In this document: positions 7,502 through 19,241 of the stretch, one piece after another
How positions within the stretch are numbered: position 1 is the stretch's first letter
How the letters are laid out: every line of letters starts with the position of its first letter
Virus genome (UHGV): UHGV-0227898
Length of the DNA: 35,614 nucleotides
Source of the DNA: a virus
Reading direction: 5' to 3' (one strand)
Translations under genes and position numbers: made by a program
Notes under the pieces: generated by a model
The model's input: only the letters and a program-made list of their open reading frames with translations
Databases searched by the model: none
Told to the model about the DNA's origin: nothing

Positions 7502-7697
7502 GTACCGGGGAGGTTTCCTGGTTGCGGTATTTTATGGGGTTCATGAAATGCCCCCATGTTGTTTTAGGGTGGCCGTCCGCTCTTTCCATAAAGAATATCC
7601 CGGCTCGACGCAGAGCATCACACTGTTTTGATTTAAGTGGCGTCCCCGTCAGTTCTATCATCTCTTCTCTGGTGATGATGTCGTGATCGTGTCTCAT
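7449..7697 (-). CDS. xis: Excisionase / Xis-like small DNA-binding protein
   Basis: 82 aa, overlaps the int 5' end. RBS GAGGAAAGACC-ATG (conserved cassette). Confidence 0.6.
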   Translation of the reverse strand: MRHDHDIITREEMIELTGTPLKSKQCDALRRAGIFFMERADGHPKTTWGHFMNPIKYRNQETSPVREDEEPDFGAVFNVRKA

Positions 7698-7869
7698 GGT
7701 CTTTCCTCAGCATGCGGTATATCGCATCGTCAGCGTCACTACAGGCGCGTTCTATGTCTGACCTGGTCAGGGTCTTCTTTCGTACACTCGCTGATAATTT
7801 TCCGATCTTGGTATCAAAGTCTGAGAGCAGGATTGCTCCGGGTTGCCAGTGCAGCATTGCGGCCTCCAT
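7698..7869 (-). CDS. Hypothetical small early protein
   Basis: GGAGG 8 nt upstream of ATG 7869. Full ORF (7633..7869) overlaps xis in another frame, so the 3' end is uncertain. Confidence 0.35.
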
Positions 7870-8653: not shown

Positions 8654-10875
8654 GCTGTTTTCTCCTGGGTTTTGTTCAGTTCTTTCAGACGTTCGTCTTT
8701 GATGGTGGTCAGGCGACGCAGGCGTTTACTCAGGTAATTAGCATGCTGGCTGTCGCCTTTAGCCTCAGCATCTTTACGGTGCACCTCCACTTCACGGGCG
8801 ATAGATGCGAATACTTTTGTAACTTCGTTGGCAGAGACACCAGTTGCCAGCGTGTTTGCCACCCGTGTGAGTTTGTCGTCCAGTTCCTGACGCAGACGTG
8901 CAGCATCTTCTGCGTTATCGCTGGCGTTTTTAAGGGCGAATTCTTCTTTATTTTTCTGCCGATATTCAGGGTTGTCATAGAGACCCATAAAGATATCGGC
9001 GCTGAAACCGAGGGAAGAGAGCGCCTTTTTGGTCGCATCGGTAAGTGATTTTTTAGTCGCTTCGCCGTCGCAAATTGGGCCGTGTTTACTCCCGTAGATA
9101 TACTGCGTACAGCCGAAAGAGATCTCTTCTCCGCGTTCACCGTTACGCACATACCAGAGGCGAATCTTAATGACGTGGTGTTTTTCTGTGAGATATCCTC
9201 CGACACCGTTTGGAATAAGTTCCCATGTATTATTCCCGTCCGGTCCTTTTACGATGCGGGTTATTGGTGCGCCATCATCAAAACGCTCCTCAAGGATATC
9301 AACGCCCCAGCCAATACCTTTCGGGCCGAATTCCCGGGTGGCCAGCATCGTCATATATGTGCCGTTGATCGATGTACCGCCACCGTTAACACTAAACTGC
9401 TTGGTAAAACGCTCATCGGTTTTGAAAACGCGTTTCCAGAGAGCAAGGTTTTCCAGTTCTGTGCCGGTGCGTTCGGAGAGGCTCTTTTCAACGTCATTAA
9501 CGTTAGGGCGTGGCTCATCTTGCACCTGATGGGCTTCTGGTTGCTCCGCGACTTTATCTTGATCGCTGCTGTCCAGCTCCTGATTTGATTCACTGGCGTA
9601 AACGCTGTAGCCCATTTTATTGAGCGTTTCACGCGCGGCTTCTGCCTGTGAATCAGTAACCACTTCCACTTTTTCCACCTCATTTGAGGCGTTCTGCGCT
9701 GTGGTCTGAGTTTCTGTTTTTACCCATTTGGGATCGGTAGGGTCACTGATACCGTCAACATACTCGCCACGCCCAGCGGCCAGAGATTTACTGGTTGCTT
9801 CCGAATCATTAGGGCTATGTTCGAACACACCATTTTCGGCAAGCCAACTGTCGATAAAGCGGCGTAATGAATCGGGGAAGTGATGCGTATCTTTCGCTGG
9901 CACATTCTGGATAACGCCAAAAATAGTGTCGCGGGAATATTTGAGGATCTGCTCAGTAGTGCGCAGCGCCATAGACCAGCGCTTAAAGTCTTCCCGGTCT
10001 TCTTCAATGATACGTTCCGCCTGGCGCAGAGCGCTGACAGATACAGTGGTCGCTGGCTCTATTGGCAACAGTGCGAGAGCGATCTCCTGATCCAGAGTGG
10101 CATATGTGTGTTTGTAACCGCGCTGTGGTGCAACCTGAACGTGGGTATTATCTTCCGTGCTGGTGCTGGTGCTGGTGCTGGTGCTGTTCTGAGGCAGCAT
10201 TTCTTCACGTTTGCCCGGGTTGTCAGTCCATTTTTTAATAAACGAGTAAAGCGCGGCGCCGCCGGGTAACTGGTTCTCAAACTTCACATAAATTGCCTGC
10301 AGGAGATTATTAAGCCCCTCCTGGTGCATGTAGTGAACAGGTGGGTGCGCTTCCATCGCATTAATGATGTAACGATTTAAGCGATCATCCTCCTCGTCAC
10401 CGTACTGGCTGGTGTTTTCGAGATTATCAAGATAGTCACAAACCTGAGAATAAATCTCCCCATCCAGCTGGGCGAGGCCAAATAACACCACCGTTGCGAA
10501 GCGTTCGCGCGGCGAAATAGTCATGAAGTCTAATTTTTCATCATTGTCAGGAAGGTGGCTCATCCCGCCAGTTGGTTCGGCGTTTGCCATCCACTTTTCG
10601 CCATCGAACGTATGGGACTTAGCAAAGTGCTCGTCAAACTTGCCGATCTCCGGGTGAGGCTGATCAGCTGTGTTTTCCCATATTTCAGGTTTAAAGAAGT
10701 TATCGCCGTTCGCCGGATAGTGCTCCCAGAGCTTACCCGTCACGATGCTTTCTGCGATTTTTTTGTTGGGTGCTTCCACGCTGATCGCCAACGCAACGGC
10801 ACCATCTTTGATGGCCGATTTTTTCGGCTTAAACAGGCAGTTGTAAACTGAGATTGTCACTTGGTCTTTCCTCAT
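8650..10875 (-). CDS. Large early protein (about 740 aa) whose C-terminal 250 aa is a Rad52/Rad22-family single-strand annealing domain; N-terminal 450 aa of unknown function; contains a (Ser-Thr)5 repeat and a long acidic linker
   Basis: C-terminal segment FSVNGGGTSINGTYMTMLATREFGPKGIGWGVDIL...ISFGCTQY... has the Rad52/22 hallmark (FGP.GxGWG). The true start may be GTG 10860, since ATGAGGAAAGACCAAGTG contains the conserved RBS cassette. Confidence 0.6.
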   Translation of the reverse strand: MRKDQVTISVYNCLFKPKKSAIKDGAVALAISVEAPNKKIAESIVTGKLWEHYPANGDNFFKPEIWENTADQPHPEIGKFDEHFAKSHTFDGEKWMANAEPTGGMSHLPDNDEKLDFMTISPRERFATVVLFGLAQLDGEIYSQVCDYLDNLENTSQYGDEEDDRLNRYIINAMEAHPPVHYMHQEGLNNLLQAIYVKFENQLPGGAALYSFIKKWTDNPGKREEMLPQNSTSTSTSTSTEDNTHVQVAPQRGYKHTYATLDQEIALALLPIEPATTVSVSALRQAERIIEEDREDFKRWSMALRTTEQILKYSRDTIFGVIQNVPAKDTHHFPDSLRRFIDSWLAENGVFEHSPNDSEATSKSLAAGRGEYVDGISDPTDPKWVKTETQTTAQNASNEVEKVEVVTDSQAEAARETLNKMGYSVYASESNQELDSSDQDKVAEQPEAHQVQDEPRPNVNDVEKSLSERTGTELENLALWKRVFKTDERFTKQFSVNGGGTSINGTYMTMLATREFGPKGIGWGVDILEERFDDGAPITRIVKGPDGNNTWELIPNGVGGYLTEKHHVIKIRLWYVRNGERGEEISFGCTQYIYGSKHGPICDGEATKKSLTDATKKALSSLGFSADIFMGLYDNPEYRQKNKEEFALKNASDNAEDAARLRQELDDKLTRVANTLATGVSANEVTKVFASIAREVEVHRKDAEAKGDSQHANYLSKRLRRLTTIKDERLKELNKTQEKTA

Positions 10876-11076: not shown

Positions 11077-11400
11077 TCAGAACGGAATATCACTTTCCTG
11101 GATTGTGGAATGGTCGATGCACAGCAGCTGTTGGATCTTGTCTTCGATGAAAGCGACGCGCTGGTGCGCCTGGTCGACAATTGACGCCTTTTCTTTCTGG
11201 AGGCGTTCAACCTGTTTACCGATAATGTCGATCGGTTCCGGCTGGTTTATTTCAAGGCAAACAGTGCGCGTTTCCAGGAGCACGTAAAGATCCGGATAGT
11301 TCTGTGACATGTCACAGGTATGAACCAGATAAAGTGCAGGGACGTGGGGGTTAGCAGATACGTGGATGTACAGTGTTACCTGCAGGGGTAGCGCTTCCAT
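11077..11400 (-). CDS. Hypothetical 107-aa protein, first gene of the leftward early operon
   Basis: RBS TAAGGAGCCGCT-ATG. Follows a roughly 400-nt structured leader. Confidence 0.55.
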   Translation of the reverse strand: MEALPLQVTLYIHVSANPHVPALYLVHTCDMSQNYPDLYVLLETRTVCLEINQPEPIDIIGKQVERLQKEKASIVDQAHQRVAFIEDKIQQLLCIDHSTIQESDIPF

Positions 11401-11433
11401 AGCGGCTCCTTACTGATGTATAATTCGAGCCGA

Positions 11434-11586
11434 TCAGCGGCTCATGTCGTTGGTCTTTCCTCGGTACAGGGTTGGTCCCCTGTACCACCTCCGGGCGGTT
11501 TGGTCACTGTCCCGGGTAAAGAAGCCCACCTCGGTGGGTTTTTTTACGTCTGGCGCCCGTCTTTCCGGACTGTCAGGGCTGGTCAT
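11434..11586 (-). CDS. Possible 50-aa basic leader peptide (MTSPDSPERRAPDVKKPTEVGFFTRDSDQTARRWYRGPTLYRGKTNDMSR) in the pL leader
   Basis: Preceded by the conserved cassette CGAGGAAAGACCAACGGGC-ATG. Arg-rich. Very uncertain. Confidence 0.2.
   Translation of the reverse strand: MTSPDSPERRAPDVKKPTEVGFFTRDSDQTARRWYRGPTLYRGKTNDMSR
11524..11546 (+). terminator. Plus-strand rho-independent terminator (gcccac-ctcg-gtgggt + T7) inside the leftward pL leader, i.e. antisense to it
   Basis: Stem-loop followed by ttttttt on the + strand; on the minus strand it is preceded, not followed, by the A/T run. Confidence 0.6.
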
Positions 11587-11800
11587 GCCCGTTGGTCTTT
11601 CCTCGTATTCATTGCCGTGAAAAAAGTGCCCCTCATGGAGACGAGGCAAAGACTACACACAGCAATTTTGGATTCGTTGCGGTCTTTCCCGCATGTCATC
11701 GTACTGGCGGCGACCCGCGAATTTGGTGCCTGTCTTTCCAGACTGTCAGAACGTTTTTCTGAACAACTGCCGCGTGGTTAGTGCGTCGTTGGTGATGTGA

Positions 11801-11829
11801 ATATTAGATTTGAGCATATTTGAGGTCAA
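11801..11829 (-). promoter_or_regulatory. pL-like sigma70 promoter for the leftward early operon (-35 TTGACC, 17-bp spacer, -10 TAATAT on the minus strand)
   Basis: Read on reverse complement: TTGACC-tcaaatatgctcaaatc-TAATAT. Shares CTAATATTCA with the pR region. Confidence 0.55.
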
Positions 11830-11881
11830 GTGCAAAATACTCGTAAAAATAATATTTTTTATATGTGTATGATAAATAAAT

Positions 11882-11906
11882 AAAAAAAAATCCCGCAGGG
11901 CGGGAT
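11882..11906 (-). terminator. Rho-independent terminator of the cI transcript (ATCCCGC-cct-GCGGGAT followed by T9 on the minus strand)
   Basis: 7-bp perfect stem 20 nt past the cI stop; nine Ts downstream on the transcribed strand. Confidence 0.8.
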
Positions 11907-11925
11907 TCAGGAATTTGGCGGGAGT

Positions 11926-12414
11926 TTACTGTTTTCTGGCGGCTAGAAGTTCTTCAAAGAGCTTGTCAAAACCACTTACTTTTTCTTTTAATTCAGCAAG
12001 ATGTCGATCTTTTTCGCTCTGAGGCAGTCTTTCATACAGTTCAATTAATTCTGTTTCTTCTGGCTTAAGCAGTCGCCAGCCAGCAGAAGAATAATCGTCA
12101 ATATGTGTACCAGACTTACGAACGTAGTTCATCAGTTCTGCTAAGTCTGGGCGCAGTTCTTCGGGTTTCACTCCCAATAGTGCGGCAAATTTCAACGCTG
12201 CATCGGTGTTGAGAGGAATGTTGCCATTAAGGTAATGGCTAACAGTAGCCTGTGTGCTGAAGCCGAGCGCATCCGCCGCCTTTTCTTGGGTAAGACGTAA
12301 AGTAACTTTTTTTTCGTTCCAGATATCCCGGAGACGCTGAGCTGTTTCAGCTTCTGCTGCATCGAGCGTTTTCTTTCTCATGGCGTCCATATTATTCGCA
12401 AAATTAATTTGCAC
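11926..12414 (-). CDS. cI: CI-like immunity repressor (HTH_XRE N-terminal domain, no S24 peptidase domain)
   Basis: HTH LTQEKAADALGFSTQATVSHYLNG. Divergent from cro. The start may be an internal ATG (MDAM or MRKK) giving a near-leaderless pRM-type message, because a TAATAT -10 overlaps the first ATG. Confidence 0.75.
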   Translation of the reverse strand: MQINFANNMDAMRKKTLDAAEAETAQRLRDIWNEKKVTLRLTQEKAADALGFSTQATVSHYLNGNIPLNTDAALKFAALLGVKPEELRPDLAELMNYVRKSGTHIDDYSSAGWRLLKPEETELIELYERLPQSEKDRHLAELKEKVSGFDKLFEELLAARKQ

Positions 12415-12429
12415 CCAATCTCATAACTA

Positions 12430-12459
12430 TTGACAGTTTCATATTCTTAAAACTAATAT
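12430..12459 (+). promoter_or_regulatory. pR-like promoter (-35 TTGACA 12430-12435, 18-bp spacer, -10 TAATAT 12454-12459) with flanking inverted half-sites TGACAG/CTGTCA as candidate operators
   Basis: Consensus hexamers read directly; AGGAGG RBS of cro follows. Confidence 0.65.
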
Positions 12460-12489
12460 TCATCTGTCACATATACCTTAGGAGGACCG

Positions 12490-13235: not shown

Positions 13236-13256
13236 CTGTACCGAGGAAAGACCAAC

Positions 13257-13481
13257 ATGCTGAATTCAATTGACCGCATTACCTGGCGGAACGGCTTCCG
13301 TTTGAATGGCGCACCGGCCGTCATGGAAGACATCGAAGATATTTTCGAAGGTCGCCGCGCAGCTGCGTTATCTATCTGGGCGCAGTATGAAAAACTGAAA
13401 GAAGAACTACGCGAAATGGAATTGTCACCTGAGGAATATCAGGCGGCATGCCGTCAAATCGCAGAAACATTGGGGATCTGA
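13257..13481 (+). CDS. Hypothetical 74-aa protein
   Basis: Starts with the conserved cassette CGAGGAAAGACCAAC-ATG; stop overlaps the O-like start region. Confidence 0.5.
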   Translation: MLNSIDRITWRNGFRLNGAPAVMEDIEDIFEGRRAAALSIWAQYEKLKEELREMELSPEEYQAACRQIAETLGI

Positions 13482-15858: not shown

Positions 15859-15899
15859 CCGCGCCTGACCAGCGCTAATTAAACAACGAGGAAAGACCA

Positions 15900-16577
15900 A
15901 TGACCGATTTACTGTATGCGAAAACTATCAGCGAAGACGATGGTTGTGACTGGATCCCTGTGATTATCTGGCGCATGAATGCTGGCGCACGTGCGCGCAG
16001 CTGTTCCTGTTTCGTTCCTACGCCTCGCCCGATCCAGGTAAACCCTGTTTATCGTGTAGCCAAACCCAAAAAAGTTCCAGTGCAGGCCGTTAACACCTCC
16101 GGGCGCTGGCTCAAGACCCACACAGCAACGGTGATTACTGCCAAAGGCGAAAAAACGGTAAAAATTCGCGAAACAGCTACTGTCTGGAGTGCCGGCAGCA
16201 AAGGAAATTACGACAAGCTTACCGGGCAGCGCGTCGGCGCACCGGGCCGTTGCCGCCTCCTGCTGGAGTCGATCACCCCGATTGTACGTAAAGCAAAAGC
16301 GGCACCAGAAAAAGCCTCCGGAGAGCTATCAGCACAAAAGCTGGTGGCGCTGATGAAAGGCAAAACCCTGTCATACCAGGGCATTCTCGCCGCGATCAAA
16401 AAATATCACCCGGACATCAAAATTACTCTTGAGCAACTGCAGAAGCGTATCTGGTTCATGCTGCAGTCAAAGTACGTTGGCATCGAACGTCACGACGATA
16501 TGCCAATTACTCATTTCACGCTGAAAAGCGTAGATCCCCGCTATTACGCTCATTCTGAGAAAAACGTGAGGGCATAA
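15900..16577 (+). CDS. Hypothetical 225-aa protein (nin-like region)
   Basis: Conserved cassette CGAGGAAAGACCA-ATG; no recognisable motifs. Confidence 0.5.
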   Translation: MTDLLYAKTISEDDGCDWIPVIIWRMNAGARARSCSCFVPTPRPIQVNPVYRVAKPKKVPVQAVNTSGRWLKTHTATVITAKGEKTVKIRETATVWSAGSKGNYDKLTGQRVGAPGRCRLLLESITPIVRKAKAAPEKASGELSAQKLVALMKGKTLSYQGILAAIKKYHPDIKITLEQLQKRIWFMLQSKYVGIERHDDMPITHFTLKSVDPRYYAHSEKNVRA

Positions 16578-19116: not shown

Positions 19117-19241
19117 TTCCACTCTTAGGGATAGCAGGAAAAACTAAAAAGTGTCATGGCGCCCGGCATCTGGAAAGAACAATATTCTGTTTCCCTTCTT
19201 TTCTCACCACAGCGGCGGGCGATTTTTCCCTTCTCTATGCT

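What the first reader, a model, noticed from the sequence alone, without database searches (positions are those of the whole stretch)
11401..11800. Structured 400-nt pL leader: 9-bp hairpin, RBS cassette plus 3-codon mini-ORF, and two 18-bp direct repeats
A good pL-like promoter (11801-11829, minus strand) sits about 400 nt upstream of the first early-left gene (11400). Read on the transcript, the leader contains in order: (1) an 18-bp element CTGACAGTCTGGAAAGAC at 11733-11750. (2) A conserved RBS cassette feeding a 50-codon Arg-rich ORF. (3) A near-identical 18-bp element at 11559-11576 (GTCTTTCCrGACTGTCAG on the + strand, 1 mismatch). (4) A perfect 9-bp hairpin GGTACAGGG-ttggtc-CCCTGTACC (11463-11486). 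(5) Another RBS cassette followed by the mini-ORF ATG AGC CGC TGA (11446-11435), ending 31 nt before the real gene's SD. This is the position of nutL/N in lambda, but no boxA (CGCTCTT) is visible. The arrangement looks like a leader-peptide or hairpin-controlled attenuation or antitermination device, or binding sites for an RNA-binding regulator. It is a candidate novel early-gene control element.
Basis: seen in the sequence. Interest (0 to 1): 0.55.

Follow-up and report, generated by a model that had tools for sequence, protein, structure and literature searches.

The report
Two convergent small RNAs behind pL
The 400-base "leader" between a prophage's early-left promoter and its first gene is not a simple attenuator: it holds two small-RNA genes that face each other, one copying part of the host regulator RprA and one able to mask a ribosome-binding cassette shared by several phage genes.

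Summary
The spacer is conserved in more than 100 related prophages, more strongly than the gene it precedes. It is not a leader-peptide or hairpin attenuator.

1. pL is flanked by operator-like 20-mers. Its last ~48 nt are homologous to the 3' half of the host sRNA RprA.

2. The 9-bp hairpin, the second "RBS cassette" and the mini-ORF lie inside a ~114-nt plus-strand RNA (11432-11545). This RNA has its own -10, helices that covary and pair fully only on the plus strand, and a plus-strand terminator. It is a divergent relative of the Gifsy prophage sRNA IsrB.

3. The plus-strand RNA's invariant UUGGUCUUUCCUC is the exact complement of GAGGAAAGACCAA. This phage family places that translation-start cassette before the exonuclease, the excisionase and two other early genes. 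The "18-bp repeats" are minus-strand hairpins with GAAAGA in the loop.

Best model, which is inferred: the antisense sRNA masks these ribosome sites, and the copies on the pL transcript are its cis target and decoys. Neither small ORF is conserved.

The parts
11801..11829 (-). pL promoter: -35 TTGACC at 11829-11824, 17-nt spacer, -10 TAATAT at 11806-11801. The predicted start is near 11795-11793.
   Evidence: Conservation among relatives with different immunity regions begins at CATCAACGACGC, just after the -10.
11800..11856 (.). Two operator-like 20-mers, AATATTAKTTTTAMGARTAT, at 11800-11819 (over the -10) and 11837-11856 (upstream of the -35). A third copy lies at 12441-12460 between the repressor and cro genes.
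   Evidence: 3 sites found, 0 expected in shuffles.
11620..11795 (-). pL-proximal terminated RNA of about 175 nt ("sRNA1"). Module order: S, hairpin h, a middle hairpin, hairpin k, the RprA-like core R, terminator T1.
   Evidence: The ends are predicted, not mapped.
11759..11782 (-). S element, ACUAACCACGCGGCAGUUGUUCAG. It is invariant in all enterobacterial relatives. A 12+4-bp helix with R is predicted but is tentative.
   Evidence: Searches show invariance. The helix appears in the MFE and alifold structures. Its energy is no better than shuffles.
11728..11743 (-). Hairpin h, GUCUG-GAAAGA-CAGGC.
   Evidence: At least 10 different 5-bp stems keep the pairing around an invariant GAAAGA loop, and the G.U pairs fall on the minus strand.
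11678..11693 (-). Hairpin k, UGCGG-GAAAGA-CCGCA.
11645..11667 (-). R, the RprA-like core AAUUGCUGUGUGUAGUCUUUGCC. The 16 nt UGCUGUGUGUAGUCUU are unchanged in all but one of the relatives that carry R.
   Evidence: Rfam RprA scores 40.9 bits, E 0.0018, here and 61.9 bits, E 2e-7, in relative L048. One search lists the variants.
11620..11647 (-). T1, a minus-strand intrinsic terminator: stem-loop at 11647-11628 followed by U6 at 11625-11620.
   Evidence: The stem sequence differs among relatives with compensatory changes, and a run of 5-8 T always follows on the minus strand.
11592..11604 (-). B1, a cassette copy GAGGAAAGACCAA with no conserved ORF behind it.
   Evidence: The predicted duplex with the plus-strand RNA seed is -37.6 kcal/mol.
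11576..11590 (-). Hairpin x, GGGC-AUGACCA-GCCC. The loop carries GACCA.
   Evidence: Stems covary (GGGC/GCCC, GAGC/GCUC, ACGC/GCGU). G.U counts favour the minus strand, 31 to 7.
11555..11570 (-). Hairpin h2, GUCCG-GAAAGA-CGGGC.
11419..11424 (+). -10 hexamer TATAAT of the plus-strand sRNA, read as GATGTATAAT. The -35 is poor.
   Evidence: TATA[CA]T-type hexamers are present in 81 of 81 distinct relatives. The geometry matches the Gifsy-2 IsrB promoter and its mapped 5' end (PMC2330248).
11432..11545 (+). IsrB-like antisense sRNA of about 114 nt. Helices: hp0 (11432-11441 with 11446-11455), p (11463-11486), hp2 (11491-11515), and T2 (hairpin 11524-11538 plus U7 at 11539-11545).
   Evidence: The fold has z = -7.0. 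Pairing is 97% with 15 of 25 pairs compensatory, in 0 of 500 shuffles. Strand asymmetry is shown. The U-run is on the plus strand in 80 of 80 relatives. Rfam isrB scores 26.3 bits, E 0.016, and the reciprocal CM hits Gifsy-2 IsrB. One copy is found in 96 of 98 related loci searched.
11450..11462 (+). Seed UUGGUCUUUCCUC. The 7 nt UUUCCUC (11456-11462) are single-stranded between hp0 and p and form an anti-Shine-Dalgarno core. GGUCUUUCC is invariant in 27 non-redundant relatives, Serratia included.
11450..11462 (-). B2, the minus-strand cassette copy GAGGAAAGACCAA. It is the cis complement of the seed. The mini-ORF at 11445-11434 follows it.
11427..11443 (-). Hairpin q, GAGCCG-CUGAU-CGGCUC, in the mRNA 5' UTR about 15 nt upstream of the SD AAGGAG (11411-11406).
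   Evidence: The stems change with compensation among relatives, and the G.U pairs fall on the minus strand (alignment, read directly).
13243..13259 (+). Trans cassette plus the start codon of the 74-aa gene after the CII-like gene. A GCGC-CUGACCA-GCG x-type hairpin precedes it.
   Evidence: Duplex energy is -33.5 kcal/mol.
15888..15902 (+). Trans cassette plus the start codon of the 225-aa gene after DnaB. A GCGC-CUGACCA-GCGC hairpin precedes it.
   Evidence: Duplex energy is -33.1 kcal/mol.
10858..10873 (-). Trans cassette at the exonuclease gene. The likely true start is GTG at 10860. A CUGCG-CAAGACCAA-CGCAG hairpin precedes it.
   Evidence: Duplex energy is -28.6 kcal/mol.
7695..7707 (-). 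Trans cassette AGGAAAGACC plus the ATG of the excisionase gene.
   Evidence: Duplex energy is -32.1 kcal/mol.

Best explanation
The interval is a compact riboregulatory locus of a lambdoid (Gifsy-like) enterobacterial prophage. It holds two convergent small-RNA units and a set of matching target motifs.

Shown:
1. pL is flanked by operator-like sites. An intrinsic terminator (T1) sits about 175 nt downstream on the same strand. The 48 nt ending at T1 are homologous to the 3' half of RprA.
2. Positions 11432-11545 encode a structured plus-strand RNA related to IsrB, with its own -10 and terminator.
3. Its invariant stretch UUGGUCUUUCCUC is perfectly complementary over 11-17 nt to the translation-initiation cassette in front of four early genes (exonuclease, excisionase and two of unknown function). 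It is also complementary to two ORF-less cassette copies and, over 8-9 nt, to three GAAAGA hairpin loops on the pL transcript.

Inferred:
- The plus-strand sRNA is made in the lysogen. It masks the Shine-Dalgarno and start region of cassette genes, acting as a fail-safe against leaky exonuclease and excisionase expression.
- It also pairs in cis with read-through pL mRNA just upstream of the first gene.
- When the repressor falls, pL floods the cell with transcripts carrying 5 or more copies of the motif. Convergent transcription also collides with the sRNA promoter. The sRNA is titrated and the cassette genes switch on.
- The RprA-like 3' module gives the abundant T1-terminated RNA an Hfq-type 3' end. 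It may also imitate RprA on host targets.
For: Conservation: 96 IMG/VR contigs plus Enterobacter, E. coli and Serratia loci keep the module order. The leader's 3' half is more conserved than the adjacent gene.

Minus-strand unit: operator-like sites; T1 with covarying stems and a T-run; RprA hits at 40.9 and 61.9 bits.

Plus-strand RNA:
- The U-run after T2 is 4 or more on the plus strand in 80 of 80 relatives, and mostly 2-3 (never above 4) on the minus strand. A -10-like hexamer is present in 81 of 81.
- 97.1% of cells are paired, and 15 of 25 pairs have compensatory changes, in 0 of 500 shuffles.
- hp0, p and hp2 are 97, 99 and 95% paired on the plus strand against 69, 94 and 71% on the minus strand.
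- The plus strand folds more stably in 27 of 27 relatives.
- Rfam isrB gives E 0.016. My model's best non-self hit is the IsrB locus of Gifsy-2 (E 6.5e-4). IsrB is an experimentally detected antisense sRNA in the same genomic position (PMC2330248).

Cassette:
- AGGAAAGACC occurs 295 times outside leaders in 934 kb of relatives against 1.8 expected. 282 copies sit directly before a start codon and an ORF of 40 or more codons.
- Apart from the cis site, B1 and three of the four cassette TIRs are the four best matches among 14,230 windows, and the exonuclease TIR ranks about eighth. Energies run from -28.6 to -37.6 kcal/mol against a mean of -12.4, sd 3.8.
- Hairpin-type copies (GAAAGA loop, covarying stems) occur only in leaders.
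Against: - There is no expression data. Both RNA ends are predicted.
- The -35 of the plus-strand promoter is poor.
- The IsrB and RprA matches are below Rfam's gathering scores.
- Trans-targeting rests on invariance and complementarity only. Cassette and seed do not covary in an informative way: only one Serratia genome shows a shared CCAA-to-CCGA change.
- The complementarity to B2 is automatic, because the sRNA is antisense to it.
- Minimal relatives (Serratia, L045) lack the h and k hairpins in the T1-terminated RNA, so a decoy role of that RNA is not universal.
- How pL transcription passes T1 is unexplained.
- The S:R helix is no better than chance by energy.
Confidence: 0.5

Rival explanations
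1. Protein-recognised cassettes. GGAAAGAC(C) in hairpin loops and at ribosome sites, together with the GACCA loops, would be binding sites for a phage or host RNA-binding protein (a translational repressor of the RegA or coat-protein type, CsrA, or ProQ). The leader copies would be high-affinity decoys or an autoregulatory platform. The plus-strand RNA would then matter only as a cis-antisense RNA.
For: The loop sequences are invariant while the stems covary. The cassettes sit exactly at translation starts. GGA motifs in loops and at SD sequences are the known CsrA site type (my own knowledge). The loop UUUGGUC of hp2 is shared with Gifsy IsrB, yet Gifsy-2 has no matching cassette regulon in its early region. 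A shared protein partner could explain that.
Against: No candidate protein is linked to the locus. The always-adjacent 107-aa product is acidic and matches no Pfam family. The 62-aa basic ORF is absent from relatives such as L001. A perfectly complementary, conserved, structured RNA lies in the locus itself, and this model leaves its invariant seed unexplained.
Confidence: 0.15
2. Processive antitermination device. The hairpins just downstream of pL (5-bp stem, purine-rich GAAAGA loop, boxB-like) or the S region would modify RNA polymerase, through an unknown N-like factor or directly like HK022 put RNA. Polymerase would then read through T1 and later terminators.
For: The position equals that of nutL or putL. 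An intrinsic terminator lies between pL and the genes. Minus-strand-specific structures downstream of T1 imply that some transcripts pass it. The hairpin geometry resembles lambda boxB (my own knowledge).
Against: There is no boxA. No Arg-rich N-like gene is present: the first ORF is acidic and the 50-codon Arg-rich ORF is not conserved. No second copy of S or of GAAAGA hairpins follows pR, whereas nut and put sites occur in both early operons (PMC9378689). Minimal relatives lack h and k altogether.
Confidence: 0.1
3. Recombination scars. The cassettes and x hairpins would be conserved gene-boundary linkers at which modules are exchanged. The leader would be a graveyard of such junctions left by gene loss and gain, with no regulatory role of its own.
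For: Leader length ranges from 276 to 1145 nt, with insertions of 250-600 nt and 1-3 copies of the B-x-hairpin unit. The same cassette marks several gene junctions.
Against: The model does not explain strand-specific covariation on both strands, a conserved plus-strand -10 and terminator, invariant loops, or why the noncoding part is more conserved than the neighbouring gene across Enterobacter, E. coli and Serratia.
Confidence: 0.08
4. One reading: a cis-acting attenuator in which translation of a leader peptide or mini-ORF, or the 9-bp hairpin on the pL transcript, decides between termination and read-through.
For: A terminator does lie in the leader. Cassette-type ribosome sites precede short ORFs in some relatives.
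Against: The ORFs are not conserved in presence, length or frame. The hairpin lies downstream of both terminators and is selected on the other strand. No alternative terminator/antiterminator pairing was found.
Confidence: 0.03

Closest known systems
IsrB (Rfam RF01386), the Gifsy-1/Gifsy-2 prophage sRNA of Salmonella
   Same: It is a plus-strand (antisense) small RNA inside the early-left operon of a lambdoid prophage. Its 5' end lies about 30 nt upstream of the start codon of the next leftward gene. It shares a penultimate hairpin with a UUUGGUC loop, a GC-rich terminator, and a similar -10 and start geometry.
   Different: This RNA scores 26 bits against a gathering score of 35. Its 5' half is different: it has hp0, an anti-SD linker and an extra hairpin p. 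It lies before the first pL gene rather than before the exonuclease gene. Here the seed matches a multi-gene cassette, and no such cassette was found in the Gifsy-2 early region. The function of IsrB itself is unknown (PMC5391140).
RprA (Rfam RF00034), a core enterobacterial Hfq-dependent sRNA
   Same: The 3' half is shared: (A)AUUGCUGUGUGUAGUCUUUGCC plus the terminator. It is almost identical over about 47 nt in relative L048, and part of the AACGAAU stretch is kept.
   Different: There is no 5' stem-loop and no Rcs-type promoter or ydiK-ydiL context. The RNA is driven by a phage early promoter. It falls below the Rfam threshold. Its 5' two thirds are phage-specific (S, h, k).
Phage immunity antisense RNAs that mask ribosome sites: P1/P7 C4, P4 CI, P22 sar and lambda OOP
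   Same: In each case a small phage RNA pairs with short complementary boxes at or near a ribosome-binding site in an early transcript and so holds lytic or antirepressor functions down. The repeated short target boxes in a leader resemble P4 seqA/seqC and P1 a'/b' (my own knowledge).
   Different: There is no Rfam C4 hit. The RNA here is convergent and cis-antisense to the leader rather than processed from it. Its targets are a cassette spread over both early operons.
Prophage anti-sRNAs and sponges (AgvB and AsxR of EHEC; PMC4104026), and StxS, a terminated early transcript that acts as an sRNA (PMC7547250)
   Same: These are prophage RNAs that titrate another sRNA by target mimicry, or a short promoter-proximal terminated transcript that doubles as a regulator.
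   Different: Here the proposed sponge and its sRNA are both phage-encoded and adjacent. The terminated transcript carries a copy of a host sRNA module.
lambda nutL/N and HK022 putL
   Same: The position immediately downstream of pL is the same. The hairpins have a short stem and a purine-rich loop.
   Different: There is no boxA, no N-like gene and no counterpart after pR. The hairpins are dispensable in minimal relatives.

Membership tests
IsrB (RF01386) | Covariance-model score at or above the Rfam gathering score (35 bits) | tested here: not met
   26.3 bits, E 0.016, in the window and 23.3 bits in L048. Gifsy-2 IsrB itself scores 99 bits.
IsrB (RF01386) | Antisense orientation within the early-left region of a lambdoid prophage, ending in a Rho-independent terminator, about 90 nt long | tested here: met
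   The RNA is on the plus strand, opposite the pL operon. The terminator is plus-strand-specific in 80 of 80 relatives. The predicted length is 114 nt, against 88/94 nt for IsrB (PMC2330248).
IsrB (RF01386) | Reciprocal similarity of the 3' domain (hairpin with UUUGGUC loop plus terminator) | tested here: met
   The best non-self hit of model R1 is L187 5979-6084 (+), which is the IsrB locus, at 23.8 bits, E 6.5e-4. E-values from this model are rough.
IsrB (RF01386) | Detected transcript; Hfq or ProQ association | not testable with these tools
   No transcriptome data are available for this prophage.
RprA (RF00034) | Covariance-model score at or above the gathering score (70 bits) | tested here: not met
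   40.9 bits in the window and 61.9 bits in L048. No match was found at gathering level.
RprA (RF00034) | Conserved 3' core UUGCUGUGUGUAGUCUUUGCC followed by the terminator | tested here: met
   The core is identical to the Rfam RprA consensus and to E. coli rprA over 21 nt. UGCUGUGUGUAGUCUU is unchanged in all but one of the relatives that carry R.
RprA (RF00034) | 5' stem-loop and the rpoS-pairing stem-loop region | tested here: not met
   The 5' part is replaced by S, h and k. Only AACGAAU is retained, and the duplex with the rpoS leader is not distinguishable from shuffles.
RprA (RF00034) | Chromosomal ydiK-rprA-ydiL locus | tested here: not met
   The element lies in a prophage between the repressor gene and the early-left genes.
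lambda-type N/nut antitermination | boxA plus a boxB hairpin after both pL and pR, and an Arg-rich N protein as first pL gene | tested here: not met
   No boxA is present. GAAAGA hairpins occur only in the leader. The first ORF is acidic with no Pfam match. The Arg-rich 50-codon ORF is present in 12 of 81 relatives.
HK022 put RNA | A two-stem-loop element of about 70 nt downstream of both early promoters | tested here: inconclusive
   The feature list comes from PMC9378689. No second copy of S or the hairpins follows pR. The put sequence itself was not compared.
Leader-peptide transcription attenuator | A conserved short ORF and mutually exclusive terminator/antiterminator helices | tested here: not met
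   The ORFs are not conserved. No alternative pairing with T1 appears in the fold.
P1 C4 / P4 CI antisense RNA (Rfam C4) | Match to the family model | tested here: not met
   The family does not appear among the matches up to E 10 on 11200-12000 or at gathering level.

The most novel reading that the evidence does not exclude
An RNA-level immunity layer built on a shared ribosome-site cassette. One IsrB-type sRNA would keep a dispersed set of early genes in both operons (exonuclease, excisionase and two unknowns) translationally silent, through a common 13-nt cassette plus kissing loops. The pL transcript would be an induction-triggered multi-copy decoy that flips the switch. The same pL RNA carries a pirated RprA 3' module, so that prophage induction also injects an RprA mimic into the host Hfq network. 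If true, this would give the first function for the IsrB family and the first phage-borne copy of a core enterobacterial sRNA.
Probability: 0.3. Interest if true: 0.8.

Novelty: new variant of a known kind. Interest (0 to 1): 0.62.

Why it matters
IsrB-type prophage sRNAs have been known since 2008 without a function. This locus offers a concrete, testable target set: a cassette at four ribosome sites plus decoy copies in the pL transcript.

I found no report of a phage-borne RprA-like module in the papers searched. Here it recurs in the pL leaders of about 100 related prophages. It also occurs in unrelated E. coli phages (LLS, 606R2) and in N4-like Erwinia phages. That points to exchange of sRNA modules between hosts and phages.

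There are practical consequences for annotation. Small ORFs called in these leaders, such as the 114-nt CDS in phage BUCT708, are probably spurious. The exonuclease start codon is probably mis-set.

Tried and rejected
- Rfam at gathering thresholds on the window and on 12 relatives found nothing relevant.
- Coding potential of the mini-ORF and the 50-codon ORF was rejected, because neither is conserved.
- S:R long-range helix. It is predicted by MFE and alifold, and the Serratia substitutions are wobble-compatible. However, its duplex energy is no better than shuffles (z about 0) and no double compensatory change was seen. I keep it only as tentative.
- RprA-like pairing of the phage RNA with the E. 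coli rpoS leader is not distinguishable from shuffles.
- Covariation between the sRNA seed (B2) and the trans cassettes is uninformative, because both are almost invariant. Only Serratia rubidaea shows a shared change.
- Search for an IsrB-matching cassette regulon in the Gifsy-2 early region found none.
- A CsrA-sponge reading and a type III toxin-antitoxin reading (repeats, terminator, then gene) were considered. The repeats are not tandem, the downstream protein matches no family, and the extended motif GGAAAGACC is not the CsrA consensus. Neither was pursued further.
- Literature searches for the cassette sequence and for phage RprA homologues found nothing relevant.
- The Papenfort 2015 paper on RprA's second seed is not held. 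Statements about that seed rest on memory.
Full report
SETTING

The window is a lambdoid, Gifsy-like enterobacterial prophage. On the minus strand the order is:
- an HTH repressor gene (12414-11926);
- its terminator;
- a sigma-70-type promoter, TTGACC-17-TAATAT (11829-11801);
- about 400 nt without a conserved ORF;
- a 107-aa gene (11400-11077) and a 62-aa ORF;
- a 741-aa exonuclease gene, a Gp157-family gene, an excisionase gene and an integrase gene.

cro-like, CII-like (YdaT), replication and DnaB genes run rightward. Three copies of a 20-mer, AATATTAKTTTTAMGARTAT, lie over the -10 of this promoter, just upstream of its -35, and between the repressor and cro genes. None is expected by chance.

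OBSERVATION

- the two 18-nt elements (11749-11732 and 11576-11559, one mismatch);
- the perfect 9-bp hairpin (11463-11486);
- two copies of CGAGGAAAGACCAACG;
- the mini-ORF (11445-11434);
- the 50-codon ORF of which the mini-ORF is the in-frame tail.

Two coordinates are off by one. GGAAAGAC occurs nine times in the window against 0.85 expected.

Two terminator-like hairpins lie inside the "leader". A stretch matches the host sRNA RprA. The other four GGAAAGAC copies in the window all sit immediately before start codons, in the direction of their operon.

CONSERVATION

An exact 24-mer from the 5' end of the leader retrieves 96 IMG/VR contigs. Protein searches with the 107-aa product add Enterobacter, E. 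coli and four Serratia loci.

The 89 distinct leaders are 276-1145 nt long but keep one module order:
- S;
- hairpins h and k;
- an optional insert of 250-600 nt;
- R plus terminator T1;
- one to three B-x-hairpin units;
- terminator T2;
- two hairpins;
- B2;
- hairpin q;
- the SD and start codon.

Between the window and the Serratia or E. coli relatives, the last 241 nt of the leader are 64-76% identical, while the adjacent gene is 59-62% identical.

NO CODING

The mini-ORF has no start codon within reach of the cassette in 31 of 81 distinct relatives. Elsewhere it is 2, 3, 7, 10, 34, 39 or 47 codons long. The 50-codon ORF exists in 12 of 81. Its ATG, which sits in the loop of hairpin x, is CTG, CTA, TTG and so on in about 40 relatives, and the downstream frames differ. 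Leader-peptide control is not supported.

MINUS-STRAND UNIT

About 175 nt downstream of the predicted pL start lies a hairpin followed by U6 (11647-11620).
- Among relatives the stem takes at least six different sequences, all paired, and is always followed by 5-8 T on the minus strand.
- Just upstream lies AAUUGCUGUGUGUAGUCUUUGCC. It is identical to the RprA consensus, and its 16-nt core is unchanged in all but one of the relatives that carry R.
- Rfam's RprA model scores 40.9 bits (E 0.0018) here and 61.9 bits (E 2e-7) in relative L048. In L048 about 47 nt are almost identical to E. coli RprA.
- All scores are below the gathering score of 70, because the RprA 5' stem-loop is absent.

So this is a homologous module, not an rprA orthologue.

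The 5' two thirds are phage-specific. They comprise an invariant S element and two hairpins with the loop GAAAGA. Folding pairs S with the RprA-like core, and the Serratia substitutions in S are wobble-compatible. But the duplex energy is no better than shuffles, so I treat that helix as tentative.

Ten relatives lack R, and minimal relatives lack h and k.

PLUS-STRAND RNA

The part of the finding that holds the 9-bp hairpin, the second cassette and the mini-ORF is selected on the other strand.
- Terminator. The hairpin at 11524-11538 is followed by a U-run on the plus strand in 80 of 80 distinct relatives (6-7 U in 54). On the minus strand the longest run is mostly 2-3 and never above 4.
- Covariation. 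Three helices (hp0, p and hp2) covary: 97.1% of cells are paired, and 15 of 25 pairs have changes on both sides, in 0 of 500 shuffles. Pairing falls to about 50% or less when partners are slid.
- Strand asymmetry. The same helices are 97, 99 and 95% paired on the plus strand but 69, 94 and 71% on the minus strand. G.U pairs number 62, 11 and 64 on the plus strand against 1, 1 and 5 on the minus strand. The plus strand folds more stably in 27 of 27 relatives. The plus-strand fold has z = -7.0.
- Promoter. A -10 hexamer (TATAAT at 11419-11424; TATACT in most relatives) is present in 81 of 81. The invariant first base of hp0, G11432, lies 7 nt beyond it.
- Relation to IsrB. Rfam's isrB model matches this strand at 26.3 bits, E 0.016. 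A covariance model built from these RNAs finds the IsrB locus of phage Gifsy-2 as its best hit outside the family (23.8 bits, E 6.5e-4). Rfam isrB scores 99 bits at that locus.
- What is known of IsrB. It is an 88/94-nt RNA detected by Northern blot and primer extension, antisense between two early-left genes (PMC2330248). It has been listed among ProQ-associated prophage sRNAs of presumed but untested role in lysogeny maintenance (PMC5391140). Its -10 (TAGAAT) and mapped 5' end have the same geometry as here.
- Prevalence. One copy of the plus-strand RNA is found in 96 of 98 related loci searched.

THE CASSETTE

GAGGAAAGACCAA is a family-wide translation-initiation cassette.
- Outside leaders, AGGAAAGACC occurs 295 times in 934 kb of related contigs against 1.8 expected.
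- 282 copies are followed within 10 nt by a start codon and an ORF of 40 or more codons.
- 159 are preceded within 45 nt by a hairpin with the loop NUGACCA.
- In the window it precedes the exonuclease gene (probable GTG start at 10860), the excisionase gene, a 74-aa gene after the CII-like gene and a 225-aa gene after DnaB.

The plus-strand RNA carries the exact complement, UUGGUCUUUCCUC. GGUCUUUCC is invariant in all 27 non-redundant relatives, Serratia included. UUUCCUC forms the single-stranded linker between hp0 and p. A scan of the whole window with the 25-nt seed region gives these energies, against a background of -12.4 ± 3.8 kcal/mol:

| Target | Energy (kcal/mol) |
|---|---|
| cis site | -47.9 |
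| leader copy B1 | -37.6 |
| TIR of the 74-aa gene (13257) | -33.5 |
| TIR of the 225-aa gene (15900) | -33.1 |
| excisionase TIR | -32.1 |
| exonuclease TIR | -28.6 |

The loops of p and hp2 are also invariant (UUGGUC) and complementary to the GACCA of the x-type loops and of the cassette.

At least ten different 5-bp stems enclose an invariant GAAAGA loop, with G.U pairs on the minus strand. Hairpin x is likewise a minus-strand structure. Hairpin-type copies occur only in leaders. Because these minus-strand structures lie downstream of T1, and no other promoter was found there, some pL transcription must pass T1.

MECHANISM

These points are shown: two convergent RNA units, a shared cassette, and extensive complementarity between them.

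These points are inferred:
- The IsrB-like RNA masks the ribosome sites of cassette genes in trans and pairs with read-through pL mRNA in cis.
- On induction the pL transcripts, which carry 5 copies of the motif here and 2-9 in relatives, titrate it. Convergent transcription also hits its promoter.
- The RprA-like module supplies an Hfq-type 3' end and possibly host-directed mimicry.

Weak points:
- No transcript data exist.
- Both Rfam matches are sub-threshold.
- There is no informative seed-cassette covariation.
- Complementarity to B2 is automatic, because the sRNA is antisense to it.
- The way past T1 is unexplained.
- Decoy hairpins are absent from the short RNA in minimal relatives.

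RIVALS

- A protein that recognises the loops and cassettes cannot be excluded (0.15).
- A nut- or put-like antitermination device is disfavoured (0.1). There is no boxA, no N-like gene and no counterpart after pR (PMC9378689).
- Recombination-linker scars explain the copy-number variation but not the strand-specific selection (0.08).

VERDICT

The locus is best filed as a new variant of known kinds: an IsrB-type antisense sRNA, plus a promoter-proximal terminated sRNA carrying an RprA module. It comes with a specific, testable regulon hypothesis.

Noticed in passing
L188:1500-1545 (Escherichia phage LLS); L189:1501-1546 (phage vB_EcoM-606R2); Erwinia phage Ea9-2 22137-22180: The RprA 3' module (AUUGCUGUGUGUAGUCUUUGCCC plus terminator) also occurs in other phages. 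In LLS it lies between the prophage repressor gene and the first early-left gene. In 606R2 it lies just before a plus-strand gene block. It also occurs in unannotated DNA of N4-like Erwinia phages. These phages lack the IsrB-like RNA.
   Followed up: partly
L003:3120-3440; also L001:3120-3380 and L090: Many relatives carry a 250-600-nt insert between hairpin k and the RprA-like core. It contains a long inverted repeat (CACCACAATCAAAGAGCGCG ... CGCTCTTTTTGATTGTGGTG) and a recurring module GAATTGCAG...CAGAAGATAAGCAYCTGRCRCCACA. It looks like another structured RNA or a small mobile insert.
   Followed up: no
window 10857-10875: The exonuclease ORF is listed from ATG 10875. However, the cassette GAGGAAAGACCAA is followed by an in-frame GTG at 10860, at the spacing seen before other cassette genes, and the PHROG match starts at residue 9. 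The real start is probably GTG 10860.
   Followed up: partly
L187:6690-6740 (Gifsy-2, minus strand): The Gifsy-2 pL leader shares a ~30-nt module, AACGTTCCGCNGGCCGGCGATAAGGCAAA, with the minimal leaders of L045 and the Serratia relatives. The pL-proximal RNAs of the two phage groups therefore share modules beyond IsrB.
   Followed up: no
window 11800-11819, 11837-11856, 12441-12460: Three copies of a 20-mer look like the repressor's operators: two at pL and only one found between the repressor and cro genes.
   Followed up: partly
L001:3591-3704 (phage BUCT708 record): A 114-nt "hypothetical protein" CDS is annotated inside the leader of the deposited phage genome. It overlaps the B-x-hairpin modules and is probably not a gene. 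The record's listed host (Stenotrophomonas) is odd for a phage whose relatives are all enterobacterial.
   Followed up: no
L104:2438-2452 and L104:3147-3165 (Serratia rubidaea): In this one genome, the cassette under the sRNA seed and the cassette of the next gene but one both read GACCGA instead of GACCAA. Three cassettes read UAGG instead of GAGG. This could be co-variation or gene conversion. With a single genome it is not evidence either way.
   Followed up: partly
L010:10882-10970: One related contig has a full-score match to Rfam sRNA-Xcc1 (66 bits). It is far from the leader and unrelated to this finding.
   Followed up: no
window 19172-19182: A one-mismatch copy of the cassette, GGAAAGAACAA, lies on the plus strand in the region before the terminase genes.
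   Followed up: no
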